The notes under the pieces are model-generated. The model was not told where the DNA came from. It was given only the letters and a program-made list of their open reading frames with translations, and searched no databases. Both the position numbers and the translations under genes were made by a program. Of a DNA stretch of 64,000 nt, positions 2,603 through 59,101 are shown in pieces. The DNA is from Strigamia acuminata (lineage: Eukaryota). Location: the NCBI GenBank assembly GCA_949358305.1, contig OX442314.1, forward strand, positions 6,634,001 to 6,698,000, written 5' to 3'. Every line of letters starts with the position of its first letter. Within the stretch, counting starts at the first letter, position 1.

Positions 2603-2654
2603 GCTGCTTAATTGTAATACCAAACAAGAAGCATTTTCATCACATGTTCTTTAC

Positions 2655-5416
2655 CTGCATTTTAGATTTTTAAATTTGTTAAGTAAGCAAATCCGACAGC
2701 ATTCTATGTATTCGTTTTCGTTAGAGCATAGACTTGTGACAAATTAGCAATAGATGGCGCCACTAGTACTAGCGGCAAATTCAACCTCGAACTTACTATT
2801 CTCCGCAGAAATAGTTCACAAACATATTATTATGTTTATTACAATAAATGTAATCTAAATCGATAATATAAAGTTATATTATCAATATTCAATAAGATAA
2901 AGCAGGTATTCTTGCTTTATCACGGGTACGCGACATGAAACCCATTTTCAGAATGTATTTCCGTTCTGTGTATCCATTTCCTGTCCCCGGTATCCAGTTC
3001 CGATTTATGCTAAAGATTAACATAATCCAAATTTGCATCTCCGTATCCACTTCCTGCGATACGAGATTGGTGGAACCTAATCCCACCGAGTATAAAACTC
3101 CCTGACAACAGGAAGTTAGTTAGTTCTGTTTTCTGGTTATTTGGTATGTTCCGCATGTCAAATAACCGTTTCTCACTCAGGGCATGGTCCTACCGGACCA
3201 TGCATAGCATGGCTCTGCTGAGCCATGCAACCCCCGCCAACTGAAGGCGAAGTTCGGACTGTTAATGTTTCCGTCAAACGGTCTTGCCGAGGAGAAAGCC
3301 TCCCGCATAAGTATCCTCGTGGTCGGACAATATAATCACGTGTGATACCAAAGTATTTAGTAACCGTCGGTAGCACTGTTACTGCAAGAGATTGACTCCA
3401 TCACCTGATGGTGCCAAAGCAGTCTGCATGCAAAACATGCAGTTACCGCCAGTAGCACTATGTGTTTGGGAATGTTATATCTCTTCGGTGATGGTGCCAA
3501 AGCAGTCTACTTACGAGTAGTATCTCGGGTGATTAATTCTGTTGTGCAGAACTGCGGGCTATATCCCCCTGAGTATCAGTGCCGTCTCTCACCGCACTGT
3601 TATTTAGGGCACGCGCGATACTGTTCTGCTCGGCAAGGCGAACTTTGACGGCAATTGTGTGTTGCGATGTTTAACCTTTATTATATTTTGTAGTTGATAA
3701 ATACACCTTAATTGTTTAAACTTGGCAACAAGTTAACAACCGAAGTAAGTCACGAGACTTATTTCACTGTATGACGAATCAAATTCGTAACAATAAATTG
3801 AATACAATTTATTGAGTTAATTTATTAAACTCACAACATCGCGAATTAAATATAATTCGCAAGCGGAACCTTGGCGAATAAATGACTTCATTTATTCATT
3901 ACCAATTTCCAACCCTAGTTGTGGCGGTGCACATGAGTCAACCGCACCTCTCGAATCGAACCAAACAGCATTACACGGACCATTACACGATACGAACCCG
4001 GAACGCGAAGGAACCAGTTCCACGATTACGAAGCGCCGACGGAAACCGCGAGGACACAGCCAGCCCGGCTACGCGTAGATGACGTCTTTTAACTCGGTCG
4101 AGCGGGCGTTTTGCCGTTCCCGAACTCCGGATCACCAATAACCGTAATGTTATTATTTTAGGGCCATTCGGCCATTTTATTGTATAGTTAAATGTGCTTT
4201 TAACTTGCCAAATGTCGGCATTAGTTTATGTATAACTTTTAGATTTGATTCTATTGTTTGACAACAATAAATGTAGTGTTTTGAGAAACTTGTTGTCTTT
4301 ATTTTATCTCGTATTATTCACTATTTCACGCGACTTATACCCGGTACTATCATGCGATAGGAGTTGTGGTCGTCACCGTCACAAACTGATCGGTGAATTA
4401 AGCAAGATGAACTACAATTGTAAACAAGGTGTTGCCCAGGAATTTTAAGTCTTTAAATTAAACTTTACTTTGTTATAACTAAAATTTATTGTAGATGTTG
4501 AACCAGGATACATCGCTGGTAAAAGATAGGGATTTTTAACATTATTGAATGTCAGGTAAACCTAACGGCAAAGAGGAAAAAATTAATGTAGCAGTTACCA
4601 TTGTAATTTTATTAAGTTACTAGATAATAAGGCATTTTGCATGTCCAGTCGTAATTTTTTTTTAAATTCACTGTCAGTAATTTTCCGGCAAATGATTTGC
4701 TAGAAGCTTCAGCTTTGTCAATGAATAATATTAGTGTAACAATGAAGGTAGTGATAAATGCTCGTTTGTAGTTACCAAATCGAAATGTTGAGCATATTCC
4801 TAATCCACTGTCAGTTTCCGTCTGAACAACAGAAGTATCTGAATATCCCTATGCAAATTGTGATTTTGTGATTTTTAACTGAATATTTCTATTTTTTTTT
4901 AATTTTAATTTTTACTTTCATTTTTACACTGTCGATGTCATCAGTATTGTTAGTTGCTTTCCAAAGTGTATCCATATCGTAAGTTGGGTTTTTAATGCTC
5001 ATTAGTGCTTCGAGCATGTTATCACATGAAATGGATTCTGGTGTTTGTTTATTTGCTATAAGAGTTTCTTCCAAAAGCCTATTCATTTTCTTTGTATCTG
5101 AACTACTGACCATTAAGTCTGGTAAAGTAACTTTTTCTGATCTACTCGTTACGTCGACAGCTGTAGGATAACTGAAGTAATGCATTATTCTGTCGTATGT
5201 CTGATATGTGAGCATGCACATGCAAAATGAGAATAAAAGCAGCCAAAGGATTTGATGTTTGCTCCTCCAACGTTTCCCACTGTTTACAAAATCTTCCAAC
5301 CCAATTATATTGCAGTTGGGTTTGTTGGCATCATCCTTCATTAATTGGTGAATTGTCAAATGCAGTTTTTTTTTCATCAGTCGATTTTTCCTCATCAAAT
5401 AATTATTCTTCATCAT
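2655..5416 (-). pseudogene. DEG/ENaC paralog A: 5' exons only, disrupted by LTR insertions, remainder outside the window
   Basis: Exon 1 has IIGLEDF...ILWLLLFSFCMCMLTYQTYDRIMHYFSYPTAVDV...LPDLMV. Later exons align to B and D. The CYRIC-containing exon is split by a 1.65-kb solo LTR. Confidence 0.8.
2735..4383 (+). mobile_element. Solo LTR (gypsy-type) inserted into a coding exon of paralog A
   Basis: TGTGAC...GTCACA termini with near-perfect 4-bp TSD GACT/AACT. The flanks rejoin to the exon that is intact in paralog B (TAGAGCATGAACTGATCGG). Confidence 0.85.
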
Positions 5417-23270: not shown

Positions 23271-26200
23271 TCAACGACCCATCTCACGATCCCGATACCA
23301 ATTATAAGTTTTTAAAATCCAATCGTACAAAGAGAGTAGTGACATTCCCAGACCTAGTCCTACAATGCTACCAAAATCGCTTAAGAATTGAGATATTGGA
23401 TACGCTTGTTTATCTTCTAAAATCTCAACAAAGCTATCAGTAAATCGGAATATTAGTATTGGGACTTTATCTCCTGGCAGTTTATTCTCCCAAAAATTGG
23501 TTTCGTATAAAGTAACTTGGCAAGGTTGTTTACATTTGCATTGTTTTTGATTCGAGTCAAGGTTGCTTAAATACGTGAAATGAGCGGTAGTTACGGCACC
23601 TGTAGTGTTACAAACTGGCCAATTAGGTTTTCCCATGTATGGTAATCTAAAACAAAGAGGAGATTGGTCAAAGATGCAAATGGTTGCAGTTTATCTGCCG
23701 AATTGGGATAGGTGTTTTTTGAACAGATTCAATCTGGTGATGCAGCAAATGAATCTTTAATCGCTGTCATGTCAAAACATGCTTGCAAATTTGTTTGTGG
23801 TTAATGATAGTGCATTGACCCATTGCTAACTTATAACTGGTCGCGGATTAGCACATCAGTCAATGTTTAGAAAAGCAAAAATGAAAATGGATGTGATAAA
23901 ATAATAGCTGCTGTATGAAAAGAAATGAAACATCTGAACTATACCTGCACTTAACACCTCGAAATAGATTGTTCTGCCAGCAAGCACTTTTACAGTTGAG
24001 GTAAGCACTTTTGTTCTCTTCACATGGATCGCGCTTTGTATTTCTTCGTATGATCTATTTCGCAAAAGGAATCTTAGTATGAGCATTTATATAATTAATT
24101 TCATTTTCTACCTGAAACTCTCGAAGTACTACTTCGTTGACACACGCATAGTTTACGGTCAACGGTGCCAAAATGTTAACTTCCTCTTCCCGATTATTTA
24201 TGATTAGCTGCGTGTTATTATAATCCAAAATATTTATATTAATAATTACTACTGTATGTGCACAAAATTTATTTTTTCTATTTTTCTATTCACAATTAGG
24301 AATACATGTGTATCCAAACCAAACACGAACCATTTTAACATCTTTTTTCAACTTTTTATGCTACTTTGTGCATGAATAAATAGACTTTCTCGTTATCTCA
24401 TTTAAGATTGATGCTTAAAAAAACACCGAGACTGTAAATTTATCGCATTATATTTTGGTTGTAAAATTTCAGGTGATTTCGAGTGAAAATATTTTTGTAC
24501 ACACCTTTAGCTGCGTATCACAAGCTTCTGAAGGAGTTAGATATCTACTAAACGTAATGAAAAGCTTAGTGATTTTGGTGCTTGTTTTATCTGTAAGACA
24601 GCGAAAAGGTCATAATTAATTTTCCAACTCGTCTGCAAGAAAGCAATTTTTAAAGTTAAATAATTCTGTGAAAAAAAGAAAAATTGAAAAATCTCAAAAT
24701 TCAAAAGCAAACTTTTTGAATACAGCCATTAATTAACTAAAATCACAAATTAATGTTGTATATTACCTTTTCTTATTTGTGAACAATTACCAAATGGAAG
24801 TGAAATAAGATTAGTTGATATTACCTGTAAACATAAAACTTTTATTGTTTGGTTTTTGTTTGAGGAATATGACTTATTATAGTTACATCATTCACAATAT
24901 GGTCGATAGCCACCGTTTCATCGATATTAAGCGATTCCCAGATGTTTTGCAATGACAAATTGCGGTTGAACAATTGCCAGGGTGATATGTTGCCACAGGT
25001 TTTATTGGGTTGTTTAAGTAAGTGTAATCGAGCTTTGCGAATTTCTTCATTACTTTTTTCACCACAAACTGTGACAAAAGGAAATTCGGTGTAGCGTCGT
25101 TGACTTATTCGAACGATTGTTGTGCCCGGTTCATTGAGGTAGTAATTGACACGAATGTGCAAGCAATACAAAGTAAATCCTGCAACAACTAATACGAATA
25201 TTAACTTCAACTTTTTTAAGACTGTATATATTTTGGTTTGCTCCTGAGTTTCATCAACTTTTTTTTTGCACATTTCATACAGACGCCTAATCTTATTGAC
25301 GGATCTTTTTTGGTGAATGTTTGATGCAACATAATATAAATACCAAATGATGTCAGGTAATGAGATTACGGATAGTCCGATAAACAAGCCCAGATTGCCT
25401 CCTAAATCTGATAATAAGGCAATAACATCATATGAGTACCGTTCTTCATAAACAGTGACTTTCTCATTAGTTATTGCTAATGATAAACTCATTGTTTTAT
25501 TATTTTTAGGTATGCCTAAATCAGTATGTGGTGTAAAAGTTATATGTTGACAAGGATGTTCACATCCGCAATCAGCAATTGGTTCTGCAAATATAACGAA
25601 GTCCTTAACATCATGATACGTCTGATTTGTATCATCTGCAAATTTGCAAAGTGGCAAATCTAGCTTCATGAACGGAAATCTTGTATAGAATATATTTAAT
25701 TAGCTGATTAATTGTGATACCAAACAAGAAGCATTTTCACCACATGTTCTTACCTGCATGTTAGCTTTTTAAATTCGTTAAGTAAGCAATTCCGATAGCA
25801 TTCTCTGTATTCGTCTTCGTTAGAGCATGAACTGATCGGTGAATTTTGCAATATGAACTACAAATGAAAACATTAAAAAGTGTTGCCCAGGAATTTCAAG
25901 TATTTAGGTAAAACCTTACTTTGTTATAACTAAAATTTATTTTTAATGTCGAACCAGGATACATCCGTGATAAAATAAAGTGATTTCCAACGTTACTGAA
26001 TGTCAGGTAAATCTTAGGGCAAAGAAGAAAGAATTAATGTAGCAATTGCTATTGTAATTTAATTAAATTACCCAATAATCAGGGTTATTGCATATCAAGT
26101 CGTAATTTTTTTGATAATTCACTTGCAGTAATTTTCCGACAAATAATTTGCTAGAAGCTTTAGCTATATCAATGCATAATATTGGTGTAACAATAAAGGT

Positions 26201-26871
26201 TGTGATAAATGCTCGTTTGTAGTTACCAAATCGAAATGTTGAGCATATTCCTAATCCACTGTCAGTTTCCGTCTGAACAACAGAAGTATTTGAATATCCC
26301 TATGCAAATATAGTTTAAATTGTGATTTTTAACTGAATTTCTCTATTGTTTTTTTTTTAATTTAAATTTTTACTTTCATTTTTAGACTGTCGATGTCATC
26401 AGTATTGTTAGTTGCTTTCCAAAGTGTATCCATATCGTAAGTTGGATTTTTAATGATCATTAGTGCTTCGAGCATGTCATCGCATGAAATGGATTCTGAT
26501 GTTTGTTTATTTGCTATAAGAGTTTCTTCCCAAAGCCTATTAATTTTCTTTGTATCTGAACTACAGACCATTAAGTCGGGTAAAGTAACATTTTCTGATC
26601 TACTCATTACGTCGACAGCTGTAGGATAACTGAAGTAACACGTTATTCTGTCGTATATCTGATATGTGAGCATGCACATGCAAAATGTGAATAAAAGCAG
26701 CCAAAGGATGTGATGTTTGCTCCTCCAACGATTCCTACTGTTTACGAAATCATCCAGACCTATTAAACTGCAGTTCGGTTTACTGGCATCATCTTTCATC
26801 ATTAGTTGAATTGCAGAACGTAGTTTGCTTAATCTTAGCATATTTCTTCTCAACAAGTGATTACCCTGCAT
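23271..26871 (-). CDS. Tandem two-domain DEG/ENaC (ASIC/pickpocket-like) channel, paralog B, 11 exons, about 792 aa
   Basis: Exons 26871-26374, 26299-26227, 26163-26072, 26012-25920, 25857-25754, 25679-24887, 24824-24767, 24590-24505, 24207-24112, 24054-23945, 23646-23271. All introns are GT-AG with compatible phases and no stops. Motifs: YFSYPT, LPDLMVC, Cys-rich thumb, LLSDLGGNLGLFIGLS, then a second TM1/FPFVTVC, second thumb and FLSDFGSIVGLGLGMS. Confidence 0.88.
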
Positions 26872-27348
26872 TATATTTATGCAGTTCCTGTAATTGGGGC
26901 CAGACCTGAGCTGAGTTTAGACTTTCAACCAACAATCGTCACCTGATGCTTGGAGAAATTGTTTTTCAAAACTATACGAGAGTTTCTCTGTTTGGTGTTG
27001 TATCCTTGAGCTAACAAGGCAACTATGCTCTTTATTTACCGTTAACTACAAAATTGATCCGTGTTTTTATTCCCTAGTAACGCCGCATGTAAAACTCATA
27101 AAATTATCCAAGCAGCAAGAATATTGATATACCGTAACATTCCATTGATTTAGAAAGTAGCAGTTTACAGTAAGTGTTGGATCTAACCTGATTAAAAGCT
27201 CCTCTTGTGTATAGACACCCAAGTAAGAACAGGACCCAAATGACATGTTTTGAATTGAAAGAATGGGTGCTGAAAACTGAGATCTCTTTATTACATTCTG
27301 TCCTTTCAATAAGAGAAATGCTTTCTAGAGACAATGATATAACGGTTA

Positions 27349-32246: not shown

Positions 32247-35200
32247 ATATGGCTTCGCCCCAGAACTTCTGTGGCAACTTCGAGTCCACTAATAAAGTTC
32301 GCATCGCTTCTGTCACAGTTCTATTCATTCGTTCTGCAACCGCGTTGCTTTCAGGTGAGTATGAGGTGGTCAATTCGTGTAGAATCCCTTTCTGAGTGAA
32401 GTATTGTCCCAAACTGTCGTTCAAAAACTCCCCGCCATTGTCCGACCGTATGCGTTTCACGAGTCGTCCCATCTGCAGTTCAATATGCGTCAAGAAGTCT
32501 TTAATCGCGGTCCCAGCCTCACTTTTAGTACTCAATACCCTCAAAAATACCATTCTGCTACAGTCATCAACCATAGTCAGTACATAACGTGCTCCCCCTA
32601 ATGTGGGTACGGGCATCGGCCCCATCAAATCAACATGAATCAACTCCATTATTTCTTGGGATTGTTGATATATAACGGCACGTCGTGGAACCCTTGTCAT
32701 TTTTCCTTTCGCGCATTCCAGACAAGTCTCATCTGGCAAATTGTCATCCCACTTCAAGCCTTTTACTAAATTTTGGCTTTTCATGTCTTCCAGATTTTTG
32801 AAATTTGGATGCCCCAATCTTTGATGCCATAAAGTTCGTGTCGCGCATTGTGTCACGCACGCTTCCTCGTTATCACGCTGCATATGAGCGTTTTCGTCGC
32901 TGAGTGTCCCAACCATGTCAAACATGAACTTGTCGTCCACACGTTGTGCCCTCATCACGTGATTCCCATCTTTATCTTGCACGTTGGCGCACTGCCACGT
33001 AAATGTCACAGTCAACCCTGCATCGACCATCTTGGGAACAGATAGTAAATTTGTCTGTAGTGTCGGGATATATAGAACATTGTTCAAACGTAACGTGTTC
33101 CCCGAAACATCTTCCGTGACGCGCATTTGCCCCCGTCCTGGTGACTTCGCTTCCGCCTTACCACTTGCCAAACCGACATCTTGTGGATATTGTTCAAAAG
33201 ATTCAAAATCTTCCTTGTGTGAAACCATATGGCTTGTTGCCCCTGAATCCAAAAGCTAACTTTCACATTCATCCTTCGTCGCCTCCTCGTTCCACCGCTC
33301 AACATCTCGACTAATTGGCAAAACTATTGCCCCACACGAGTATTCTCGTGGTTTGGTTGTCGGTCGTACTTCGCTTCGTGCTGAAGACTCAGCTGTTCTA
33401 TTTCCGCCGCGTCCTTTGTTCGGTGTTCTCGTATTTGTCCCAATTCCGCGTGAATGCGCGCTTCCCCTCGTTGCATCATTCGTTTTACTCTTGGACCAGC
33501 AGTCCCGGGCGTAATGCCCAATCTTGTGGCAATTATAACATTCTACATTGCATTTCCCCTTTGGTCGTTCCCATTTCCATCGTGACTTTTTTTCTTTACA
33601 CGCTGTCTTTCCTCTTTAAATCTCAATGCGGTTCGAGCTTCACCCAAAGCCAGGTCATTGCTTTGTCCCTCAAAAATTCGCACATTGTGCTCAAACTCAA
33701 CTCGCAGTCCTCGTGCTACGTAACTTAGCATTTCCTGATTGCTAAATATTTTCCCAAGTTCCGCTGCTTTGGTCTTTATTGCCTCCGCACGATTGATGTA
33801 AGTTTCAACCGTTTCTTTTTCGTTCATCTTCACCTGCGCTAATTCTATGCCGCATTTGACCACTTCAAAATCATTTTTCGGTTCCTTGTGAGTCTCAATC
33901 GTTTCCCACAGCTTTTTGGCGTTCGTTTCCATACTGTATCGCACTCCTTGCTCTCCTGAAAGTGACAGCATCAAGATCCCCATGGCCTCGTCATTTTTTC
34001 GCTCTCAATCCTCCCAAATGGCCCGCATCTGGCCGTAATTCGACTGTCCTAGTCGTTCTTTCTCCGGTTCGTCATTCACGATCACTGTCTTCCATAAGCC
34101 TTTCATCTTTAATACTGCACGCAATCTCATCTTCCACAGGAAATAATTCCTGTCGGTCAGTCTCTCAACCGTCGTTGATGAAGAAGAGACGTTCACGAAC
34201 GATTCCGCCGTCGCCATCTCGTGTCGAAATTCCGTAGCAGACGACAGAAATAAACGGGAATTAATTTCACGGCAAATATTTTCAAAAACTTAGTGACACT
34301 ATAAACTTGCGGTTTTCTGGCCCGTTTTTTTGCTTCAGCAGGTCAATTTGGCTTCAGTAATCAAACCATCCATCTGCTACCACTTGTTGGTTTATACGCA
34401 AATAAACAGACGTTTGAAAAGCAATAAAACGAACATGTCGGCATTTATTCCAACTCTAACGACAACACATTGTAAACTACAACACTGGTTGCACTACATT
34501 CTTGTGCAATCAGTTCTCGGCAATAATACATTAATCAATAAACTCAACACTCTAATTGCTTTGTGGTAAAAACACATCCACAAAAACATGTGTTTTAATA
34601 CATTTATAAGTACGATTTATAAACTTTTAGGGAATTAAATGGGGAACACAAAAGATCACACTGGTGCTGATAGACCAGGAACCATTCCAATAACTTTTAA
34701 AATAATGACTCTTTCTAGTGCATGTCAAACTAACAATTCGTGTTCATTAAATACTAGTACATACAGTATAGACCTTTTTTAAATTTGTGATGCAACAGAT
34801 TTAAAATATTTTATGTGAATAATTTTATTGAAGTAATATTTTATGACCAGGAAAGATCAAACACTTCACATGTGCAAATGATTTTAAGACGAGTTCCATA
34901 AAGATAAATAACTTTAAAATCATTTTTATAATAAATGAAGTAAACTCTATGACAAATGTAACTTTTAAAAACCAATGTCCATTTTATATCTTAAACATAT
35001 GGTAGCCAACCTATTTCCTTTTAAATTTAGCACTAACGTAACATGTGACGTATATGGATAGCTTTTATGTAGCCATATTTTATTGCTTCTTTTGGAAGCA
35101 AATCGACACGATCTTAATCTTATACCAATTATAACTGTTTAAAATACAAATGTAGAGAGACAGTAATGACATTCCCAAACCCAATCCTACAATACTACCG

Positions 35201-37090
35201 ACATCGCTTAACAATTGAGACATTGGATAAGCTTCTTGCTCTTCAATACTCTCCAACAATGTATCAGGGAATTCAATATCTATCATTGTCAAATTACTAC
35301 CTAAAAATTTAATTCCATGGCAAAAATATTTGTAAAAACTATTTTCACATGGTAGTTTACATTTGCATTGTTTCTGATTTGAATCAAAATTCTTTTTAGA
35401 TACATGAAATGAGCGAAAGTAGATTCCTTTGTTGTGTTACAAACTGGCAGATTCGGTCTCCAGAAATAAGGCAATCTGAAACAAACAGTAGAAGCTTAAA
35501 ATTTACATACAACCATGCACATTATTTATTTGCTGAATAAGATAAATGTGTTCATACTGTGTATGTTCTGTATGTTACATACACAATGCAATTAGAATTG
35601 AGATGTGAAAAAAGTGAAATATTTAAACTGACACACCTGCAGGTAATATTTTGAACTAAATTGTTTCTCATGCAAGCTTTTTTACACTTGAAATAAGCAC
35701 TTTTGTCCTTTTCACATGGATTGCGCTTTGTATTTCTTCGAATAGTCTATTTCATAAAAACAAGGTTGTTAAGTGTAAGCATTTATATAATTAGTTTAAT
35801 TTTCTACCTTAAATTCTTTAAGTGTTACCATGTTCAACCAATGATAGTTTACAGCTAACGGTGCCAGAATATTAACTTCTTCTTCCAGATTATTTGGGAA
35901 AAACTAAACACAGTTATAATTCAAAAGTAGGTGAATATGTATGTACAGACTTATCCATAAATCACAAAATGTACAGGTTTGGGCAATAATACAGTAAACC
36001 AAAAGTTTGAATAAAATTTATCTTTATCAACAAAAAATCTCACAGATTGTGTTCACAAATCCGAAGTAAACGTGAGATGATCAATTCACCAAGAAAATAA
36101 ATTGCAAGGCCGCTTGACATGCAAAGACTAATATGACCCCTTCCCCCCCCCCCCAACTTTTTGGCAACTTTTTGGGTGTGAAAAAAGGTTTAAGCTGATT
36201 TGGTACACAAGCTTTGATTGCACTTGCACAGAAATTTTCTGGCAAGCAGAAAGTTATACTTTCTACAGCAGTGACGGTGGACGGAAAAATTCTATTCTTT
36301 CTGGAATAGCAAAATTTATTTCCTATTCATTTTTAATTGCTGGAAATTTTTTTGGGTTGATGTTCGAATGGCGAATGACCCAATAGCGAAAATGTGCAGA
36401 TTTGTCATTCAAGATGAATTTTATTGTTTCCAATGATAAAATTTGACATTTTTGCCATTGACCATTGCATTTGAACATGATGTACGATTATTGCTGTCAT
36501 TAAACATTCTTTCTAATTCATTTAATATGTATAATATTTTATGAAATAAGTAATCAATGCAAAAGTTTACAGAGGGGCTTAGTAGTTACTACGCCGCAAC
36601 GTAGAACTGTAGTCTGTCCAAAAAGTTTACAATGTTCTCCTTTTTTAAAAATGTCACAAATTAGTTTAGCACTGCGTTTTAGTGATTTTGTATTCTGATA
36701 AAACTATTCACACCATTTAATAGTGTGAAGTTTGAGCTTCCTTGAAAAGTAATTTACAGCGTAGTACCAAAATATTTTTATTTATTTACCTTTCTTTTAG
36801 CATTGTTAGGCCTAATATTTGGCTTAATACTGCTAAATAACAACTGGAATTAGAAAATTGTCTGCGCAGAATGGGATGCGCAGTACGAATTTAGTATCAA
36901 GATGCCGGGCGCAACCTGTGGTTAAATTAAGGTTTGCCAACATTTGGAGTTGCACCAGTCGCTATTTCCGTTGCTGGTGCTGGTTTACATTTCCGCCAAA
37001 GAGGAGTGTTCTCTTAGGACGTAGTTCTACGTCAAAAGAGTTTTTATTTAATAACAAATGGTGTTGTAGTACAGTACGGTACCTTTAGAT

Positions 37091-37346
37091 CAGGGGTCGG
37101 CAAGTAATTTTAAGTGGGGTCCGGAAAAATTGAAAATTTTTATCGAGGTCCAGAAAAAGACAACAAAATAAAACAAAAAGAACACAAAAAACATCAAAAA
37201 CACCCAAAAAAAACCAAAAAAACCAAAAAAACACCAAAAAACACCAAAAATACCAAAAAAATATATAATAAAAAATATCTGGCGGTCCAAGTTTCGACCT
37301 TCCGCGGTCCGGATCCGGACCGCGGGCCGCCAGTTGCCGACCGCTG
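37091..37346. mobile_element. hAT-type MITE
   Basis: TIR CAGGGGTCGGCAA...TTGCCGACCGCTG and perfect 8-bp TSD CTTTAGAT. Confidence 0.88.
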
Positions 37347-37562
37347 CTTTAGATGTTGGTCACATAGTTTCGAAGGAAATAGATTATGAAATGTAATAAA
37401 AAGATAAGAGTTTGGGTCTTTTGATTGTTCTGAAAAACATTGGAAAGGTGTGAATAAATTTTCAGATGCATCTGCTAGAAATGATTTTTACTAGATAAAT
37501 TATTCCAATCAAAAAATTAAATTATCACAAAAAAGTGAGTTCTGTGAGAATAACCAAATATT

Positions 37563-37956
37563 AGGTGCATTCAAGTTAAAATTCAAATTTGACTTATCAA
37601 TAATTCATGTAAGTCATTTGACTTAACTCCAGTGGGCGTGTCATCAACATTCTTAATACGTCCAAGTGCCTCCTAGTGACGTATTGGTGGCCGTAATACA
37701 TAATATCCAACACACATGAATAATTAGGCCACTGGAATAAGTTATTCAAGAGGATGCCCCCAGTCAGTCAACCATGAAAAGAGGAACCCAGTAAGAAACT
37801 GGTCGAGGAATGAAGAATTGAATTTGCTCATTACCTATCTGAACAGCCAAAGGCATGATTAGTAATTGCTGACATTTTAAGCACAAATTCATGTTTGAAT
37901 TATTAATAATTCAGATTATTATAAGTCAAATTTGGATTTTAACTTTGAATGCACCG
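37563..37956. mobile_element. MITE, short member of the AGGTGCATTC-TIR family
   Basis: GGTGCATTCAA...TTGAATGCACC termini, similar to 50324-52084. Confidence 0.7.
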
Positions 37957-40900
37957 ATTGTTAAAGTGTGAAATAATAGAAATTAAATTGCTAATTTACT
38001 TATGTTTATCCGTGAACAATTGCCAAAAGGAAGTAGAAGAGGATGCTTTGATATGTTTAGCTCTGTTTTATATCCATACAATTTCTACAAAAATAATGAT
38101 TTTCAATGCCATTTGTTTTTAGGTAATATAAAATACTAGAATACCTCATTCTCAATATCAATGGTGTCATGGACACTGAGTGTTTTCCAAATATCTTCCA
38201 GTGACAATTTGTTGTTGAACAATTGCCAGGGCGATATTTCATTGCAAGTTTTGTTGGTCTGTTTCAGTAAGTGTGATCTGGCTTCGTCCATGGCATCATT
38301 TTGATTTTCACCACAGATCGTGACTGACTGATATTCGATGTAGCAGCGTTGATCTATTCTAACCATTGTTGTTATCAGTTCATCAATGTAGTAGTTGATG
38401 CGAATACGCAACCAATATAAAGTGAATCCCGCAGTCACAAATACTAGCGCAAACTTAAACCTTTTTAAGACTTCATTTGTTATGGTTTGCTCTTTACTTG
38501 CAATGACTTTCTTCTTGCATATCTCGTACAGAGGACGAATCTTATCGACGGATGTATTTCGGTGAATGTTTGTTGCAACATAATATAAATACCCAGTGAG
38601 TTCAGGTAACGAAATTAACGCTAGGCCAAAAAACAGGCCAAGATTGCCACCTAAATCCGACAGAAGAGCAATTGCGTCGTACGTGTATCGTTCTTCATAC
38701 ACGCTAATTTTGTCATTAGAAATTGCTAGAGATACAGATACAGTGTTTTTATCATCTGCTGTGCCTATTTCAGTGAAAGATGTAAAGGTTATTTGATGAC
38801 ATGGACGTCGACAGAGACACACAGTAATGGGATTTGTGGTCTCAATCAACTGCTTTGCAGCACCGTAATGCATGTATATGTCCTTCGAACATTTGCAAAG
38901 TGGTAAATCGATCTTCATGAAAGGAAATCTTTAATAGAAGATTTGTAATCATTATTTTTTTATGTAGAACTACATCTTTCTCTGCACTAAGCGGGCTGCA
39001 ACAATTGGACAGGAATGACACGGGAATGGAAATGCAATTTTTTTTATTTCTTACCTGCATGGTAGCTGCTTAAATTTCTTCAATAGACATCTCCGATAGC
39101 ATTCTCTGTATTCCTCTTGACTAGAGCATTCATTTATTGGTGAATTCAGAAAAATGAACTAAAATGTTTGAGTAAAATAAGGTGATTCGTAGGAATTTTC
39201 GGTCTTTGATAAAATTTTACTTTGTTATAACTCAAATAAACTTTTGTTGTTCCACCGGGATATTGTATTCCCACCCCGAAAATTTTTCCAAAATTGTAGA
39301 AACGAAAACCAACCTAAGGGCAAAGGAAAAAAAAGTAGACAACAACTATTTTTGCAATGTATTAAAATTACACCGTATTTCGATGCAGGGCATGTGTCAT
39401 CATAACTTGTTTCTATTTTAACTGTTACGACTTGTCCAACAAAAGATTCGCTAGATGCCTTAGCTATATATCAATAAATAATAAAGTGCATTGAAGTTGA
39501 TAGTGGTAAATGTTTGCTTATACATACGAAATTGAATTGATGAGCATAGTCCATGATAATTGATCATTTCTGTCAGAACAAATGTTTTGTTTGAATTAGA
39601 ATATCCCTATGCAAAATAAAGAGATTTAAATAATTTTTTTTAACTCATTAAAAGTTATTGATTCCATCTTTTTACTTTTATTTTTACGCTCACAACTTCT
39701 TTCGTCAAATTACTCGCTTCCCAAAGTTCCTCTAGATTGTAAGTTGGGATTGCCATTAGTGCGTTTAACTTGTTACTGCAGGCGGAACGTGAAGGTTTGG
39801 ATTTTGATTAAGTTTTATTCCAAAATCTCGACATTTCTTTTGTATTGCTACTACATATCAACAAAATCGATAGGACGACCTCTTCTGATCTACTCGTTAC
39901 ATCAACAGTCGTAGGATAACTTAAGTAATGCATTACCCTATCGTAAGTCTGATAAGTAAGCATGCATGTGCAAAATGAGAATAAAAGTAGCCAAAAGGTG
40001 TGACGCCTTGTCCAATGTTTTCTACTGTTTATGAAATCATCCAAACCAACTAAGCTGCATCGAAGTTTATTTGCATCATCCTTCAACAATCGATGAATTG
40101 CTGGACGTAGTCACCTCACCAAATTATTATTTTGCATTATATATTATTTAAATCAAAGGTTTTTTCTATAATGACAATTGATGATTATGAACAATTTAAT
40201 TATTGAAAGGAATAAGTGTAGATGTTATGATCTTTTTATCTGCTTTTGGTGGTGTGAAAAGGTACATACCTGCTTGTTATTCGACGTCTCTCAGTGCTGT
40301 GAGTTCAAAATTGACTGTAAATTCTCTTTTCTCATAGATCTTCTATTGATTTGTATAATTCTAATTAAAGTGCCTTTGGTGAGTGAATGAAAACTTAATT
40401 AGATTTTTGAAATGCATTTAATTATTTATAGTAAATGTTATGTTCAGAAAATTCGATAATACACTGCAGTCCACCTTGACACGAATTCTGTATCTTGGAC
40501 AGCCAGCCCATTTCTAGCATGCATAAGCTAATGGGAGTTAAAGAAAAATAAATTATTAATTTTAATTACCTACATGATCAATTTTAAAAATTAAAACTAC
40601 CTCCTCTATCTAGAACCGCCTATTTCTGGCACGGACAAGCTACAGTAATTATACGAAAAAGAAAATGGAGTTTTTAATAAATATACAATCAATTTTTGAA
40701 GTAAAACTTCTTTGGCGCAACAGAGACTCAAAATAGGAAATGACAATAAGTGACGGAAATGATGTAACAGTAAGGGGAAAAGCGAAGCACAATACAAGCA
40801 GTGAAGGGAGAGGAGCAAACCACAGACCAATACAAGATAATTGACTAACACAAAACACAAAACATGTGTTAATTTGTAATAAGTGGAGATGTTTTATGTC

Positions 40901-48145: not shown

Positions 48146-51100
48146 ATGGAGAATAATAGTTTGATGTGGAGATACAGAAGAGGGAAAAGTCAACTGCGTC
48201 TGACAATTCACCAATTAATGAAGGATGATGCCAACAAACCCAACTGCGATATAATTGGATTGGAAGATTTCGTAAACAGTAGGAAACGTTGGAGGAGCAA
48301 ACATCACATCCTTTGGCTGCTTTTATTCACATTTTGCACGTGCATGCTCACATATCAGACATACGACAGAATAATGCATTACTTCAGTTATCCTACGGCT
48401 GTTGATGTAACGAGTAGATCAGAAAATATTACTTTACCAGACTTAATGGTCTATAGTACAGACACAAAGAAAATGAATAGGCTTTGGGAAGAAACTCATA
48501 TAGCAAATAAAAAAATATCAAAATCCATTTCATGTGCTATCATGCTTAAAAAACTAATGACAATTGAAAACCCAACTTACGATATGGATACACTTTGGAA
48601 AGCAACTAACAATACTGATGACATCGACAGTGTAAAAATGAAAGTAAAAATTAAAATTAAAAAACAAACAATAGAGAAATTCAGTTAAAAATCACAATTT
48701 AAACTATATTTGCATAGGGATATTCAAATACTTCTGTTGTTCAGACGGAAACTGACAGTGAATTAGGAATATGCTCAACATTTCGATTTGGTAACTACAA
48801 ACAAGCATTAATCATTTCCTTCATTGTTACAATAATATTATTCATTGACATAGCTGAAGCTTCTAGCAAATCATTTGTCGGAAAATTACTGACAGTGAAT
48901 TTAAAAAAAAATTACGACTGGACATGCAAAGTGCCTTATTATTGGGTAACTTAATTAAATTACAATAGCAATTGCTACATTAATTTTTTCCTCTTTGCCC
49001 TTAGTTTTACCTGATATTCAATAATGTTGGAAATAACTATTTTGTATCAGTGATGTATCCTGGTTCAACATCTAAAATAAATTTAAGTTGTAACAAAGTA
49101 AAGTTTTACGTAAAAACTTGAAATTCCTGAGCAACACTTGTTAATGTTTACAATTGTAGTTTATATTGCAAAATTCACCGATCAATTCATGCTCTAACGA
49201 AGACGAATACAGAGAATGCTATCGGAATTGCTTACTTAACAAATTTAAAAAGGAAAAATGCAGGTAAGAACATGTGGAAAAAATGCTTCACAATTAAACA
49301 GCTAATTAAATATATTCTGTACAAGATTTCCGTTCATGAAGTTGGATTTGCCACTTTGCAAATTAGGAAATGATGCAGATAACATGTATCACATTGTTAG
49401 GCACTTAATTAAACATACAGAACCAATTACCCATTGCCAATGTCGACGTCCTTGTCAACATTTAACTTTTACACCATATACTGATTTAGGCATAGCTAAA
49501 AATAATAAAACGATGAGTTTAACATTAGCAATAACTAATGAGAAGGTTACTGTTTATGAAGAACGGTACACATATGATGTTATTGCCTTACTATCCGATT
49601 TAGGAGGAAATCTGGGCCTGTTTCTTGGACTATCCGTAATCTCATTACCGCACATCATTTGGTATTTATATTATGTTGCATCAAACATTCGCCGAAAAAG
49701 ATCCGTCAATAAGATTAGGCGTCTGTATGAAATGTGCAAAAACAAAGTCGATGAAACTGAAGAGCAAACCAAAATACATACAGTCTTAGAAAAGTTGAAG
49801 TTAATATTCGTATTAGTTGTTGCAGGATTCACTTTGTATTGCCTGCACATTCGTGTCAATTACTACGTCGATGAACCGGGCACAACAATCGTTCGAATAA
49901 GCCAACGACGCTACACCGAATTTCCTTCTGTCACAATTTGTAGTGAAAAAAGAAATGAAGAAATGCGCACAGCTCGATTGGACTTACTGAAACAACCCAA
50001 TAAAACCTGTGGCAACATATCACCCTGGCAATTGTTCAACAGCAAATTGTCGTTGCAAAACATCTGGAAATCGCTTAGTATCGCCCAAGTTTTACATGTT
50101 GGCTGTGTTGAGAAAAAGGATGTAACTATAATAAGTGATATTCCTCAAATAAAAACCAAACAATTAAAGCTTTATGTTTACAGGTACCATCAATTAATTT
50201 TATTTCACTTCCATTTGGCAATTGTTCACAAATAAGAAATGGTTATATATAAAATTAATTTCTGATTTTAGTTAATTAATGGTTCTATTCAAAGTCTACT
50301 TTTGAATTCTAGGATTTTTCAATAGGTGCATTCAAAGTCAAATGAATTATTTGACTGAAATGACTGAAATGACTGATTTGACTGATTTGACTTAACAGTC
50401 ACAGGAAATGATGCAATTTACATCATCAGATGATAATCGAAATTTGAAAATTCATAATCTGCTTATTTTCATGATTTTTTACAAGCTTTTCAAGACTTTT
50501 CACTCAGTTTTCGATGATTTTTGACGATTTTTGACGATTTTTACACAGTTTTTGACGATTTTTACCGAGGCTTTCACAATTTTTACCCAGTTTGTCACGA
50601 TTTTTACCCTTTTCACCCAGTTTTTCATGATTTTTACCCTTTTCACCCAGTTTTTCATGATTTTTCACAATTTTTACTTTGTTTTTCACATTACATAATT
50701 TTTACCCAGTTTTTCATGATTTTACACGATTTTTACCGGTTTTTCATTATTTTACACGATTTTTACCCAATTTTTCACGATTTTACATGATTTTTATCGT
50801 TTTTCACGATTTTACACGATATTTACCGAGTTTTTCACAATTTTTACCTTGTTTTTCACGATTTTTTACAATTTTCACCCAGTTTTTCATGATTTTTCAC
50901 AATTTTTACCCTGTTTTTCACTGCCCAGTGGAAATGCTCAAAACATAAATTACATGCAAACGAGGTTCAATATTTGCAAGGTTAGTAGCGCTCTTATAAT
51001 TAGGTTAGTAAAATGCTAACACAACACTAAGCTAGTTTACAATAATATTCAATGAATAAATTCAAAAAAAATTTCAAAAAAAAATTCAAAAATTCAAATA

Positions 51101-53863
51101 AATCAAGAAAATCTTCAAAAATGATGTTTTCAAGAAGTTGAAAGGTTTGTGAAGTCATCTGGTGCACTTCACGTGCTTTTCCTTGAAAATCTGGTCCAAA
51201 ATATCCATAATTCTACTGGTTGAAATATCCGAAACAATCCACACACTTCACGTGTATTTTTCTGGTCAAAATGTCCGAAATTCGCAATTTTCGCTGGTCT
51301 ATGGTGTCCAAATCGATTCCCACACTTCACGTGTGTTTTCCTCTCGAAATTTGGGTCCAAAAAACGTCCAAAAACATGCAAAACGTTCAAAAATGCCTCG
51401 CACGAGTCCAAATGGTACAAATCGTCGTCTGGGCGCATTCTGTGCTGCACGGCACGTCCTTCGCGAACGTTTCGGCGACGTTCCTCGTTGTTCGCGAACG
51501 TCCGTGCGACGTTCCTCGTTGTCCGCGAACGTCCGTGCGACGTTCCTCGTCGATTAGCGGTCAACGCCGCGAACGTGTCGGAAATGTGCGGCCCTGGCAA
51601 TCGTACGATCGGCGTGCGCTCGAAAACATAAATTTGTGTTTAAAAATGTCAGCAATTACTAACCTTGCTTTTGCCTAAGTATGGCTGTTCAGCTAGGTAA
51701 TGAGCACTGCTCATTTCTTGAGTCCTTGACCAGTTTCTTGCTGGATTCCTCTTTTCATGATAGACTGACTGGGGGCATCCATCTTGAATGGCTTATTCCA
51801 GTGGCCAAATAATTCATGTGCTCAGCCATGATTGGAGGAATTTTTCCATCAGCCACTTATTGATAAGTCATGATTGGAGTGACTTATCAATAGGCCACTT
51901 ATTGCAATTGAATTATCTTTTCAGTGATGTAAATTACATCATTTCCTGTGACTGGTAAGATATTTCAGTCACATCAGCCAAATAATTGTTCACTTTGTAT
52001 GGAATTTAGCCAAATGACTTATATGAATTATTGATAATTCAGATTATGATAAGTCAAATTTGGATTTTAACTTTGAATGCACCTATTGTCTTTTTTTTTC
52101 TGGAATTATTTAACTGTAAAAATTGCTTACTGCAGACGAATTAGAAAATTAATTCTGACCTTCTCACTTTCTTCCAGATAAAACAAGCACAAAAACCACT
52201 AGACTTGACATTATTTTCACTATAGGTCCAACTCCTGCAGAAGCTTGTGATCCGCAGATAAAGGTGTGTAAAAAAAATATTTTCACTCGAAATCACATGT
52301 AATTTTGCAACCAAAATGGAATGTTATAAATTGACAGTCTCAATGTCTTTTTAAGCAGCATTCTTAAATAAGATAACGAGAAAGTCTATTTATTCATGCA
52401 GAATGAAGCAAAAAAGTTCTTTAGATAATCCAAATCTAAAAGAAGTTAGAAAAATGGTTTGTGTTTGGTTCAGACACACATGTATTCCTAATTGTAAATA
52501 GAAAAAATAGAAAAATAGTTTTTGTGCACATAACTTACAGTTTTAATTATAAATATAAATATTTTGGATTATATTAACACGCAGCTAATCATAAATAATC
52601 GGGAAGAGGAAGTTAACATTTTGGCACCCTTGACCGTAAACCATCCATGTTACTACTTTGTAGTACTTCGAGAGTTTCAGGTAGAAAATGAAATAAATTA
52701 TAGAAATGCTCCTACTAAGATTTCTTTTGCGAAATAGATCATACGAAGAAATACAAAGCTTGATCCGTGTGAAGAGAACAAAAGTGCTTATCTCAAGTGT
52801 AAAAGAGCTTGCTGGCATAACAATGTACTTCGAGGTGTTAAGTGCAGGTATACTTCACATTTCTATTCATGCATCAGCTCCAATTTTATCACATCTATTT
52901 TTATTTTTCGCCGTTCTAAAGATTGACTGATTAGCCAATCCGCAGTCAGTAATTGCACTAGCATTAAACACACACAAACTTGCAAGCATGTTTTGACATG
53001 ACAGCGATTAAAGATTCATTTGCTGCATCACCAGATTGAATCTATTCGAAAAACACCTAACCCTTTTCAGCAGATAAACTGCAACCAGTTGTGACCGTCT
53101 GGCCACCGTGGCTACCTACGGTGATGCGTGTCACTCCACACACTGCTCTCTGGTCCCTGGCCACCCCTCTTGCGAGGTATACTGGCCTAGTGGGAAAGAA
53201 AGGAGCTGAGTGGTGGAGAGAAGAGACTGTGAGTCAGAGAGAGAGAGAGTTTGGACAGCACAGGATGAGGAAGTGTGCTCTTGAGGTCTCTCAGCCAGCC
53301 TGGGCAGTGCAGTGCCCCAGTTGACTCTGCTCGTCTCCATTATTACGTGAAGGTCCGGTCCCACCCACGGCGATCAATCCCCAGATTGCTGTGAGAGCGA
53401 AGACCCGTCACAGCTAGTCTTCAGTTATGTCAATTCTAGAAGAAGCATCTTTGACCAATCTCCTCTTTGTTTCAGATTACCATACATGGGAAAACCTAAT
53501 TTGCCAGTTTGTAACACTACAAGTGTCGTAACTACTGCTCATTTCACGCATTTAAGCAACCTTGACTCGAATCAAAAACAATGCAAATGTAAACAACCTT
53601 GCAAACATATTTTTTACAAAAGTACTTTTCGGAAGAGTCCTTACCTAAATGATGGAGTTACAGTTCTATTGTTGCAATTTGCTGATAGCTCTGTAGAGAT
53701 TGTAGAAGAGAAACAAGCATATCCAATATCTCAATTCTTAAGCGATTTCGGTAGCATTGTAGGACTGGGTTTGGGAATGTCACTTCTCTCTTTGTACGAT
53801 TGGATTTTAAAAACTCTTAATTGGTATCGGAATCAAGATGTGGGTTGTAGATTTGCACTCTAA
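48146..53863 (+). CDS. Tandem two-domain DEG/ENaC (ASIC/pickpocket-like) channel, paralog D, 11 exons, about 797 aa
   Basis: Exons 48146-48643, 48718-48790, 48854-48945, 49005-49097, 49160-49263, 49326-50121, 50184-50241, 52178-52263, 52585-52680, 52738-52847, 53476-53863. GT-AG introns, compatible phases and no stops. Two TM1-ECD-TM2 units. Confidence 0.88.
50324..52084. mobile_element. Non-autonomous DNA transposon in an intron of paralog D
   Basis: TIR AGGTGCATTCAAAGT...ACTTTGAATGCACCT flanked by AT on each side. Absent from the equivalent intron of paralog B. Confidence 0.8.
53090..53412. mobile_element. Truncated solo LTR (small family) in the last intron of paralog D
   Basis: TGTGACC...GTCACA, absent from the equivalent intron of paralog B. 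Confidence 0.7.
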
Positions 53864-59068: not shown

Positions 59069-59101
59069 TCGAGACCAATTAAAATTAATATTGTTTAAAT
59101 C

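What the first reader, a model, noticed from the sequence alone, without database searches (positions are those of the whole stretch)
23271..26871. Second intact double-DEG/ENaC gene (paralog B): the fusion is a conserved family feature
B has the same 11-exon layout, mostly identical exon lengths and the same uninterrupted TM2-linker-TM1' exon (25679-24887). The more diverged paralog C also keeps this junction open (38136-38918) with an alignable linker (KIRRLYEMCKKK versus KIRPLYEICKKK). Conservation of frame and linker across diverged copies argues for selection on the fused protein rather than an assembly or annotation artefact.
Basis: partly seen in the sequence, partly recalled or inferred. 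Interest (0 to 1): 0.82.

Follow-up and report, generated by a model that had tools for sequence, protein, structure and literature searches.

The report
Fused double DEG/ENaC channel gene
An intact 11-exon gene in this (likely centipede) genome encodes two complete DEG/ENaC sodium-channel subunits joined head to tail in one protein; about twenty predicted proteins of the centipede Strigamia maritima share this layout, which would put two tied subunits into a channel family that normally builds its pore from three separate ones.

Summary
Paralog B (23271-26871, minus strand) has 11 GT-AG exons and an open 792-codon frame. Exon 6 (24887-25679) runs without a stop from the TM2 of one DEG/ENaC subunit through a 36-residue linker into the TM1 of a second. 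Copy D (48146-53863) matches it exon for exon.

The fusion is real and old. The two halves share five intron positions with phases 0,1,0,0,2, so exon 6 is the last exon of one tandem copy joined to the first exon of the next. In 20 Strigamia maritima proteins, 22-49% identical to exon 6, one HMMER match covers TM2, linker and TM1'. One of them is collinear with B over about 750 residues.

B and D are kept open by selection: 0 of 5000 neutral simulations stayed stop-free, and there are no frameshifts. The four TM segments have dN/dS 0.23; the ectodomains have about 1.

Two caveats. The linker's own dN/dS (0.57-1.37) cannot be told from neutral; its constraint shows only across species, as fixed length and 36-51% identity.

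No RNA data were available. No paper describing natural tandem DEG/ENaC subunits was found. How a two-subunit chain assembles in a trimeric family is inferred, not shown.

The parts
26374..26871 (-). B exon 1 (498 nt): ATG, cytosolic N-terminus, TM1, start of ectodomain 1
   Evidence: gene model; Pfam ASC profile 4-89 on this frame
26746..26769 (-). Pre-TM1 motif SLIGLDDF of half 1; aligns to the HG motif (SFHGIHNIV) of ASIC5, Gly kept, His replaced by Ile
26653..26712 (-). TM1 of half 1 (residues 54-73)
   Evidence: Hydropathy peak; coordinates
26227..26299 (-). B exon 2 (73 nt)
26164..26226 (-). Intron 2, 63 nt, GT..AG in copies A-D (70 nt in C). It is in frame and stop-free in A, B and D, so retention would add 21 hydrophobic residues.
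   Evidence: (21-residue gap against Strigamia P0001)
26072..26163 (-). B exon 3 (92 nt)
25920..26012 (-). B exon 4 (93 nt)
25754..25857 (-). B exon 5 (104 nt), Cys-rich segment of ectodomain 1
24887..25679 (-). B exon 6 (793 nt), the junction exon: end of ectodomain 1, TM2, linker, TM1', start of ectodomain 2
25319..25432 (-). Pre-TM2 and TM2 of half 1 (residues 370-407; LLSDLGGNLGLFIGLSVISL with G-L-S)
   Evidence: (dN/dS 0.09)
25211..25318 (-). Linker, 36 residues (408-443), basic, likely cytosolic; motif NKIxxLYxxCKKK
25148..25210 (-). TM1' of half 2 (residues 444-464)
   Evidence: (0 non-synonymous, 2 synonymous changes between B and D)
24767..24824 (-). B exon 7 (58 nt)
24505..24590 (-). 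B exon 8 (86 nt)
24112..24207 (-). B exon 9 (96 nt)
23945..24054 (-). B exon 10 (110 nt), Cys-rich segment of ectodomain 2
23271..23646 (-). B exon 11 (376 nt with stop): end of ectodomain 2, TM2' (23310-23402, G-M-S), 12-residue tail
   Evidence: (ASC profile 324-450)
48146..53863 (+). Copy D: intact 11-exon, 797-codon double gene. Exons: 48146-48643, 48718-48790, 48854-48945, 49005-49097, 49160-49263, 49326-50121, 50184-50241, 52178-52263, 52585-52680, 52738-52847, 53476-53863.
35100..40140 (-). Copy C: pseudogene of the same double gene. The junction exon (38145-38928) is still open. Exon 1 has two stops, the exon 8 donor is lost, and the last exon has a +2 frameshift.
2654..5413 (-). Copy A: exons 1-5 only, with an insertion before exon 5. 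No junction exon lies within the window.

Best explanation
Paralog B is an intact 11-exon gene whose 792-codon frame encodes two complete DEG/ENaC subunits (TM1-ectodomain-TM2, twice) joined by a 36-residue, likely cytosolic linker, and this chain would place two tied subunits side by side in a pore that is predicted to take its third subunit from another polypeptide. Shown: the gene structure; the open frame; the two ASC domains; the origin by tandem duplication of a 6-exon gene, with the last exon of copy 1 fused to the first exon of copy 2; selection on the frame and on all four TM segments; and the same architecture in about twenty Strigamia maritima proteins. Inferred: the topology (both termini and the linker inside the cell, two ectodomains outside); that both halves line a pore, since both keep the LSDxG...GxS TM2 motif; and that the short linker (25-52 residues across the family) keeps TM2 and TM1' close together, so the halves sit as neighbouring protomers of one trimer-like assembly rather than in two distant trimers. 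The fast-evolving ectodomains (dN/dS about 1) on conserved TM cores, the tandem array and the birth-and-death pattern suggest a diversifying sensory receptor family. The nearest solved relatives are the centipede antennal channels BRTNaC1 (heat) and PDPNaC1 (protons).
For: Gene model: 11 exons, all GT-AG, 792 codons, no stop. D is the same with 797 codons. Pfam ASC matches exon 1 (profile 4-89), exon 6 (two stretches; the better one at profile 351-454) and exon 11 (profile 324-450), each at 45-63 bits against a cut-off of 23.6. A profile I built from 42 single-length relatives finds two near-complete domains in B and in D. The halves are 26% identical over 157 residues. Each half has five introns, with phases 0,1,0,0,2, at profile columns 220/226, 245/245, 279/281, 314/314 and 351/351. 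B versus D: 300 nucleotide differences, 0 stops, one 3-nt indel. Placing 300 random substitutions gives a mean of 12.6 stops, and 0 of 5000 runs are stop-free. Introns carry 10 small indels per 1120 aligned nt (6 not a multiple of 3), against 1 in-frame indel per 2442 exon nt (run on the 10-exon model). dN/dS: four TM segments pooled 0.23 (p 0.0004); TM2-linker-TM1' 0.21 (p 0.0016); whole gene 0.74 (p 0.032). Relatives: of the 150 best representatives, 24 proteins have a single HMMER match running from TM2 to TM1', and 20 of those 24 are Strigamia maritima entries. B is collinear with T1JD34 (P0011): residues 55-805 against 46-787, 23.7% identity, E 8e-52. Linker length is 36 in 6 of 7 close relatives and 35 in the seventh; identity to B is 13-18 of 35-36 residues in the four Strigamia relatives. 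AlphaFold2 model of P0011: pLDDT 72.6, pTM 0.66; TM2 helix 359-400, a turn at 401-402, then helix 403-453 running into TM1'. Model residues 423-785 match BRTNaC1 (Z 20.1, 339 aligned, rmsd 5.0) and residues 51-381 match PDPNaC1 (Z 20.0, 317 aligned, rmsd 4.7). Contigs of three runs from two studies cover 28-30 of the 30 bins of the locus, including the linker bins. Engineered ASIC concatemers with 19-residue added linkers form functional trimers (PMC10329638, passages).
Against: I have no transcript evidence, so splicing, expression and the absence of internal starts are untested. The ectodomains evolve at dN/dS 0.99 and exons diverge about as fast as introns (p 0.126 vs 0.138), so constraint on most of the protein is weak or mixed with diversifying selection. 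The linker's dN/dS is not distinguishable from 1. Two of the four copies in the window are dead or truncated. The nearest copy switches along the gene, which suggests gene conversion and blurs pairwise dS. The structure model is of a 24%-identical relative, is of moderate confidence, and no inter-domain geometry could be read from it. Half 2 has no HG-like element before TM1', so its contribution to the lower pore may differ from that of half 1. A two-subunit chain does not divide into a trimer, so the proposed 2+1 assembly needs a partner that I have not identified. One low-depth X3 contig joins 24286 to 26349, with only 23 nt on its shorter side.
Confidence: 0.72

Rival explanations
1. The fused protein is real, but each half joins a different trimer. 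Three chains would then build two tethered pores (three first halves plus three second halves), or chains would bridge neighbouring trimers into clusters or lattices.
For: This solves the 2-into-3 arithmetic without an extra partner. In the domain tree the first halves and second halves of the B-like lineage fall in separate groups (window half 2 in a group with SH-aLRT 96; window half 1 in a weaker group, 81-91). That is compatible with each half type self-associating.
Against: Linkers are short (25-52 residues). The model of P0011 predicts a tight helix-turn-helix between TM2 and TM1'. From recalled dimensions of ASIC trimers (ectodomain about 85 Å wide), three such linkers could hardly all span two side-by-side trimers; this is inference.
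Confidence: 0.17
2. The locus yields two ordinary single subunits from the one frame, through an internal promoter or start in the linker, alternative polyadenylation, or cleavage of the linker.
For: B and D have a Met in the linker (YEMCKKK) and basic clusters (QKRS, RRKRS).
Against: The Met is absent in C and in the Strigamia relatives P0002, P0003 and P0004, and lies elsewhere in P0001. No stop separates the halves in any copy. The linker would be cytosolic, out of reach of furin-type enzymes (inference from topology). The fixed linker length argues for a retained tether.
Confidence: 0.06
3. B and D are young, unexpressed duplicates drifting towards pseudogenes in a transposon-rich array, and the open frames are leftovers.
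For: Ectodomain dN/dS is about 1. Exon divergence is about equal to intron divergence. C is dead and A is truncated. Ty1/copia elements lie between the copies.
Against: 0 of 5000 neutral simulations keep the frame open. About 13 frameshifting indels are expected at the intron rate and none is seen (my arithmetic). TM segments have dN/dS 0.23, p 0.0004.
Confidence: 0.03
4. Assembly or annotation artefact: two adjacent genes were wrongly joined.
For: Several multi-ASC database entries may be merged gene models. In P0064 (Polypedilum, three domains), P0126 (Helobdella), P0057 and P0009 the domains of one protein are each other's nearest relatives in the tree.
Against: In the window the junction lies inside a single exon of raw DNA, with no stop, no splice site and no gap. 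The only run of N is at 58869-59068. Three runs cover the region. Four copies in the window and 20 Strigamia proteins share the junction.
Confidence: 0.02

Closest known systems
BRTNaC1 and PDPNaC1, DEG/ENaC channels of Scolopendra antennae (PDB 8ymr/8ymw/8ymx and 9jf7; PMC9974506, PMC12714832)
   Same: They are the best solved-structure matches by sequence: exon 6 residues 2-114 align to BRTNaC1 302-412 (E 2.6e-8). They are also the best by fold, for each half of the Strigamia relative's model (Z 20). They share the small ectodomain and the centipede lineage.
   Different: They are ordinary subunits of 431 and 421 residues with two TM segments, and PDPNaC1 is described as a homotrimer (passages read). 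B carries two such units in one chain. The tail of the first and the N-terminus of the second are cut down to 36 residues, and half 2 has no HG-like element.
Uncharacterised Strigamia maritima proteins T1JEH2, T1JGJ4, T1JEG4, T1JD34, T1ITL7, T1IU28 and others (UniProt names as given by the source)
   Same: They have the same TM2-linker-TM1' junction (20 proteins). The closest ones have a 35-36-residue linker with NKIxxLY..KKK. T1JD34 is collinear with B along its whole length.
   Different: They are 22-49% identical to exon 6. Several are broken or merged gene models: P0001 repeats its N-terminus, and P0060 is joined to a WD-repeat protein. None carries a name or a described function.
Engineered ASIC concatemers
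   Same: Subunits are tied TM2 to TM1 by a cytosolic linker and still form working trimeric channels (PMC10329638, passages; PMC8871370, search listing only).
   Different: They are laboratory constructs, usually three subunits long with full native termini plus 19 added residues. B is natural, two subunits long, and has trimmed termini.
Two-pore-domain K+ channels (K2P); analogy recalled, not tested here
   Same: A pore-forming unit is duplicated in tandem within one chain, fixing the order and pairing of non-identical halves.
   Different: The fold is unrelated. Two K2P chains give the four pore domains needed, whereas two-unit chains do not divide into three.
Roughly 1000-residue multi-ASC proteins of crustacean type (cluster of P0083, with member XP_069977668.1 of Penaeus vannamei; unnamed P0052, P0073, P0111, P0086, P0089)
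   Same: They have two full ASC domains in one chain. Their first halves form one clade (SH-aLRT 97) and most second halves another (99), the pattern expected of one old fusion.
   Different: They fall outside the centipede clade in the tree, so they are probably an independent fusion. Most carry an extra partial ASC piece between the two domains. Five Logan contigs of 3.4-4.0 kb each hold a whole 1001-codon frame; I did not check whether these contigs are RNA.

Membership tests
DEG/ENaC (Pfam ASC, PF00858) | Sequence match to the ASC profile above the curated cut-off | tested here: met
   Exon 1 frame 49.5 bits, exon 6 frame 62.9 bits (2 stretches), exon 11 frame 45 bits; cut-off 23.6
DEG/ENaC (Pfam ASC, PF00858) | Subunit plan: TM1, a large Cys-rich ectodomain, then TM2; here expected twice | tested here: met
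   My own profile finds two near-complete domains in B and in D. Hydropathy peaks lie at residues 55-73, 404-422, 465-483 and 782-800 in 10-exon numbering.
DEG/ENaC (Pfam ASC, PF00858) | Pre-TM2/TM2 motif LSDxGG...GxS (selectivity-filter region; the motif definition is recalled) | tested here: met
   Half 1 has LLSDLGGNLGLFIGLSVISL and half 2 has FLSDFGSIVGLGLGMSLLSL. Half 1 aligns to BRTNaC1 LLSDIGGVLGLFLGI.
DEG/ENaC (Pfam ASC, PF00858) | HG motif before TM1 (recalled as widely but not universally conserved) | tested here: inconclusive
   In half 1, SLIGLDDF aligns to ASIC5 SFHGIHNIV, so Gly is kept and His is replaced by Ile. In half 2 the 36-residue linker has no Gly. I did not check how many accepted family members lack the motif.
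DEG/ENaC (Pfam ASC, PF00858) | ASIC-like subunit fold | tested here: met
   Tested on the collinear Strigamia relative P0011, not on B itself. Both halves match whole solved subunits at Z 20. The extension to B is inference from the collinear alignment.
DEG/ENaC (Pfam ASC, PF00858) | Trimeric assembly around a TM2-lined pore | not testable with these tools
   No assembly data exist; this needs expression and structure work.
Centipede double-ASC family (the Strigamia T1JEH2/T1JD34 group; defined here, not a published family) | One open frame running TM2, a short basic linker, then TM1', with two collinear full domains | tested here: met
Centipede double-ASC family (the Strigamia T1JEH2/T1JD34 group; defined here, not a published family) | Each half groups with the corresponding half of other members (a single origin of the fusion) | tested here: inconclusive
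   Window half 2 lies in a group with SH-aLRT 96 that also holds P0011 half 2, P0004, P0008 and P0012. Window half 1 groups with P0011 half 1 and P0016 at only 81-91. In P0009 and in the P0005/P0006/P0007 group the halves are mixed. It was a quick tree, with 14 near-duplicate rows dropped.

The most novel reading that the evidence does not exclude
Centipedes, and independently crustaceans, evolved natural two-subunit concatemers of a strictly trimeric channel family and expanded them into large receptor-like families. The tether fixes a non-identical neighbour pair in every pore and forces a new assembly rule: either two linked subunits plus one from elsewhere, or chains that bridge trimers into clusters. 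No published DEG/ENaC work describes this quaternary logic.
Probability: 0.45. Interest if true: 0.85.

Novelty: new variant of a known kind. Interest (0 to 1): 0.68.

Why it matters
DEG/ENaC channels (ENaC, ASICs, degenerins, pickpockets, FaNaCs) are textbook trimers of separate two-TM subunits. A natural, selected, expanded family of two-subunit chains raises a direct and testable question about stoichiometry and subunit order. Tandem pore domains did the same for K2P and two-pore channels. The family also offers ready-made natural concatemers for studying heteromeric gating. It points to an unrecognised, fast-evolving candidate sensory receptor family in myriapods, whose two characterised relatives sense heat and protons in the antenna. 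Finally, it warns annotators that "ASC-ASC" gene models in arthropods are not all merge errors.

Tried and rejected
- RNA evidence: the look-up of sequencing runs listed no RNA holder. The four runs laid were contigs that cover introns as well, so expression and splicing stay untested.
- Complex prediction on the two halves of P0011: no verdict (score 0.10, mark 0.34). It is not used either way.
- Whole genome: not held, so I could not take a genome-wide census or look for single-domain partners.
- Earlier findings of this scan: nothing by place, sequence or words.
- ESM Atlas: only generic ASC clusters.
- The search for homologous proteins: 'longer' gave only P0001 and 'near' gave only P0002. 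Nothing closer than 48% identity turned up, so the source species' own proteins are not in that collection.
- My first 10-exon model was replaced by the 11-exon model. With that change I withdraw my earlier reading of a frameshift in C's second exon; the 70-nt stretch is an intron.
- I considered a 57-nt intron that would remove C's TAA in exon 1. I rejected it because the donor is poor, no other copy has an intron there, and it would delete conserved residues (by eye).
- Literature: ten full-text searches and passages read in PMC5203786, PMC9974506, PMC12714832, PMC8438182, PMC9822975 and PMC10507113 turned up no description of natural tandem or fused DEG/ENaC subunits. Vizueta et al. 2020, which PMC8438182 cites for candidate PPKs in Strigamia, is not held, and supplements were not read, so a mention there cannot be excluded.
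- Summed contig depth at the locus is far above that of single contigs. That hints at many near-identical copies, but the tool warns that this figure is not a copy number.
Full report
What is there. The window is eukaryotic DNA, 25-48% G+C in 2-kb windows, with short GT-AG introns and Ty1/copia elements. No whole genome is held for it. It contains four copies of one DEG/ENaC-type gene and no other ASC-like pieces. These are A (2654-5413, minus strand; exons 1-5 only), B (23271-26871, minus), C (about 35100-40140, minus) and D (48146-53863, plus).

Gene model of B. My first pass gave ten exons. A 21-residue gap against the Strigamia protein P0001 and a GT..AG pair kept in all four copies then revealed a 63-nt intron at 26164-26226. 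The final model has 11 exons, all introns GT-AG, and 792 codons with no stop. D has the same layout with 797 codons. Nine of 11 exon lengths are identical; exon 6 is 793 vs 796 nt, and the last exon differs only in where the stop falls. It lies in a stop-free frame of 285 codons. A 264-codon open frame at this base composition has a chance probability of about 3e-9.

Two subunits in one frame. Pfam ASC matches the frames as follows, each at 45-63 bits against a cut-off of 23.6.
- Exon 1 matches the start of the profile (positions 4-89).
- Exon 6 matches in two stretches, the better one at the end of the profile (351-454 of 455).
- Exon 11 matches the end of the profile again (324-450).

A profile built here from 42 single-length relatives finds two near-complete domains in B and in D. 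Hydropathy shows the four expected TM segments. Both halves keep the pre-TM2/TM2 motif, with G-L-S in half 1 and G-M-S in half 2; the motif definition is recalled. The layout of B is:
- N-terminus, 53 residues
- TM1
- ectodomain 1, 296 residues
- TM2
- linker, 36 residues
- TM1'
- ectodomain 2, about 286 residues
- TM2'
- tail, 12 residues

Half 1 keeps the Gly of the HG motif: SLIGLDDF aligns to SFHGIHNIV of ASIC5. The linker before TM1' has no such element.

How the fusion arose. I aligned both halves of B to one profile. Each half has five introns, with phases 0,1,0,0,2, at columns 220/226, 245/245, 279/281, 314/314 and 351/351. The halves are only 26% identical over 157 residues. The gene is therefore an old tandem duplicate of a six-exon gene. 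The last exon of copy 1 and the first exon of copy 2 became one exon, which gives 6+6-1 = 11 exons.

Selection.
- Frame maintenance. B and D differ at 300 of 2376 coding sites, yet neither has a stop, and the only indel is 3 nt. Placing 300 random substitutions on B gives a mean of 12.6 stops, and 0 of 5000 runs stay open.
- Indels. Introns carry 10 small indels per 1120 aligned nt, 6 of them not a multiple of three. Exons carry 1 per 2442 nt (run on the 10-exon model). By my arithmetic about 13 frameshifts are expected and none is seen.
- dN/dS by the Nei-Gojobori method: whole gene 0.74 (p 0.032); four TM segments pooled 0.23 (p 0.0004); TM2 0.09; TM1' with 0 non-synonymous and 2 synonymous changes; TM2-linker-TM1' 0.21 (p 0.0016); ectodomains pooled 0.99.
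- The linker alone gives 0.70 (6 non-synonymous, 2 synonymous, p 0.65). Against C it gives 0.57 and 1.37.
- Across species the linker is constrained. Its length is 36 in six of seven close relatives and 35 in the seventh. Its identity to B in four Strigamia proteins is 13-18 of 35-36 residues, similar to the ectodomain flanks (27-30 of 82 and 43-45 of 87) and below TM2 (27-31 of 38).

Copy C is dead. It has a stop eight codons after the ATG together with a 36-nt shorter exon 1, and a TAA further into exon 1. It has also lost its donor (CA) where a G+C-rich insertion follows exon 8, and it has a +2 frameshift in the last exon. Its exon 6 is still open, and its dN/dS against B and D is 0.34. It was therefore functional for most of its history, but its open frame cannot be used as proof of selection. 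Copy A stops after exon 5.

Relatives.
- The exhaustive HMMER search with exon 6 found 289 proteins at E up to 0.001. Among the best 150, 24 proteins have a single match running from TM2 to TM1'.
- Of those 24, 20 are Strigamia maritima entries, one is Polypedilum vanderplanki, two are unnamed ENA records, and one (P0004) I did not look up. In all, 21 of the 31 names looked up were Strigamia.
- The closest relatives are 47-55% identical. B is collinear with T1JD34 at 23.7% identity over 801 columns. In the distant paralogues the linker is 25-52 residues, basic, and cannot be aligned.
- I built a quick tree of 106 domain rows, from 120 after dropping 14 rows of seven near-duplicate proteins. 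It places all window and Strigamia domains on one side of a weakly supported split (SH-aLRT 73). Window half 2 falls in a group with support 96 that holds the second half of P0011. Window half 1 falls with the first half of P0011 at 81-91. Other Strigamia groups mix their halves; they may be later duplications or merged gene models.
- A separate group of roughly 1000-residue proteins, one cluster of which includes a Penaeus vannamei entry, has its first halves in one clade (97) and most second halves in another (99). It lies outside the centipede clade, which suggests an independent fusion.

Structure. The best solved matches to exon 6 by sequence are the Scolopendra channels BRTNaC1 and PDPNaC1 (E 2.6e-8 and 4.1e-8), followed by ASIC5, ASIC1 and FaNaC. 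An AlphaFold2 model of T1JD34 (28-row alignment; pLDDT 72.6; pTM 0.66) has TM2 as helix 359-400, a two-residue turn, and helix 403-453 running into TM1'. Model residues 423-785 match BRTNaC1 53-414 (Z 20.1, rmsd 5.0, 339 aligned). Residues 51-381 match PDPNaC1 46-389 (Z 20.0, rmsd 4.7, 317 aligned). Each half is thus predicted to be a whole subunit. This was tested on a relative and extends to B only by inference.

Mechanism. Shown: one frame, two whole subunits, and selection on the frame and on the TM cores. Inferred: both termini and the linker are cytosolic. The short linker, predicted to fold back as a helix-turn-helix, would keep TM2 and TM1' close, so the halves sit as neighbours in one trimer-like pore and a third subunit comes from another chain. 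Engineered ASIC concatemers show that such tethers are compatible with function (PMC10329638, passages). The main rival is that each half joins a different trimer, giving twin pores or bridged clusters. Conserved TM cores with fast-evolving ectodomains, the tandem array, gene-conversion-like mosaicism and the dead copies all fit a birth-and-death sensory receptor family. The stimulus is unknown.

Novelty. The published centipede DEG/ENaCs are ordinary two-TM subunits (PMC9974506 and PMC12714832, passages). Ten full-text searches and six papers checked by passage gave no description of natural tandem DEG/ENaC subunits. One relevant paper, Vizueta et al. 2020, is not held. The Strigamia entries are public but unnamed. 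I rate this a new variant of a known kind.

Limits. There is no RNA evidence and no genome-wide census. Pairwise dN/dS comes from three copies and is affected by gene conversion. The tree is quick and partly unresolved. No assembly data exist.

Noticed in passing
window 60075-63998 (-), 30042-34004 (-), 42290-44248 (-), 6331-6834 (-): Ty1/copia-type LTR retrotransposon frames lie between the channel copies. One is a 1307-codon open gag-pol frame running off the window end (RVT_2, rve, gag, zinc knuckle). The others are broken into pieces.
   Followed up: partly
window 26700-26930 (B) against 48090-48300 (D) and about 5250-5480 (A): Divergence is mosaic. The first 200 nt around the start codon differ by 27-51% between B and the other copies, while later 100-nt windows differ by 1-19%, and the nearest copy switches along the gene. 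The N-terminal 53 codons have dS 0.88 against about 0.1-0.25 elsewhere. This looks like gene conversion among array members.
   Followed up: partly
window 26164-26226 (B), 48791-48853 (D): Intron 2 is 63 nt, in frame and stop-free in A, B and D. Its retention would insert 21 mostly hydrophobic residues into ectodomain 1 without breaking the frame.
   Followed up: no
window 50242-52177 and 52848-53475 (D): D's intron 7 is 1936 nt against 176 nt in B (one gap of 1759 nt in the alignment). Its intron 10 is 628 nt against 298 nt (a gap of 354 nt). I did not identify the inserted sequence.
   Followed up: no
window about 37300-37430 (C, after exon 8): A G+C-rich stretch (GGCGGCCCGCGGTCCGGATCCGGACC-like) starts exactly where C has lost its splice donor. 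It may be the end of an inserted element.
   Followed up: no
window 15594-16064, 8003-8447, 46721-47083, 59089-59442; N run 58869-59068: Long open frames here are made of short tandem repeats (for example a repeated FKFSYK unit), and there is one 200-N assembly gap. None of these overlaps the channel genes.
   Followed up: no
proteins P0083/P0153, P0052, P0073, P0111 (database, not the window): Crustacean-type proteins of about 1000 residues read ASC, then a partial ASC (C-terminal third), then ASC. Five Logan contigs of 3.4-4.0 kb each carry a whole 1001-codon frame, as spliced mRNA or an intron-less gene would.
   Followed up: partly
window 23200-27000, runs X1-X3: Summed contig depth reaches roughly 17 to 35 times that of single contigs and is highest over the TM2 segment (25359-25485). 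This hints at many near-identical copies in the genome, though the tool warns that the figure is not a copy number.
   Followed up: no
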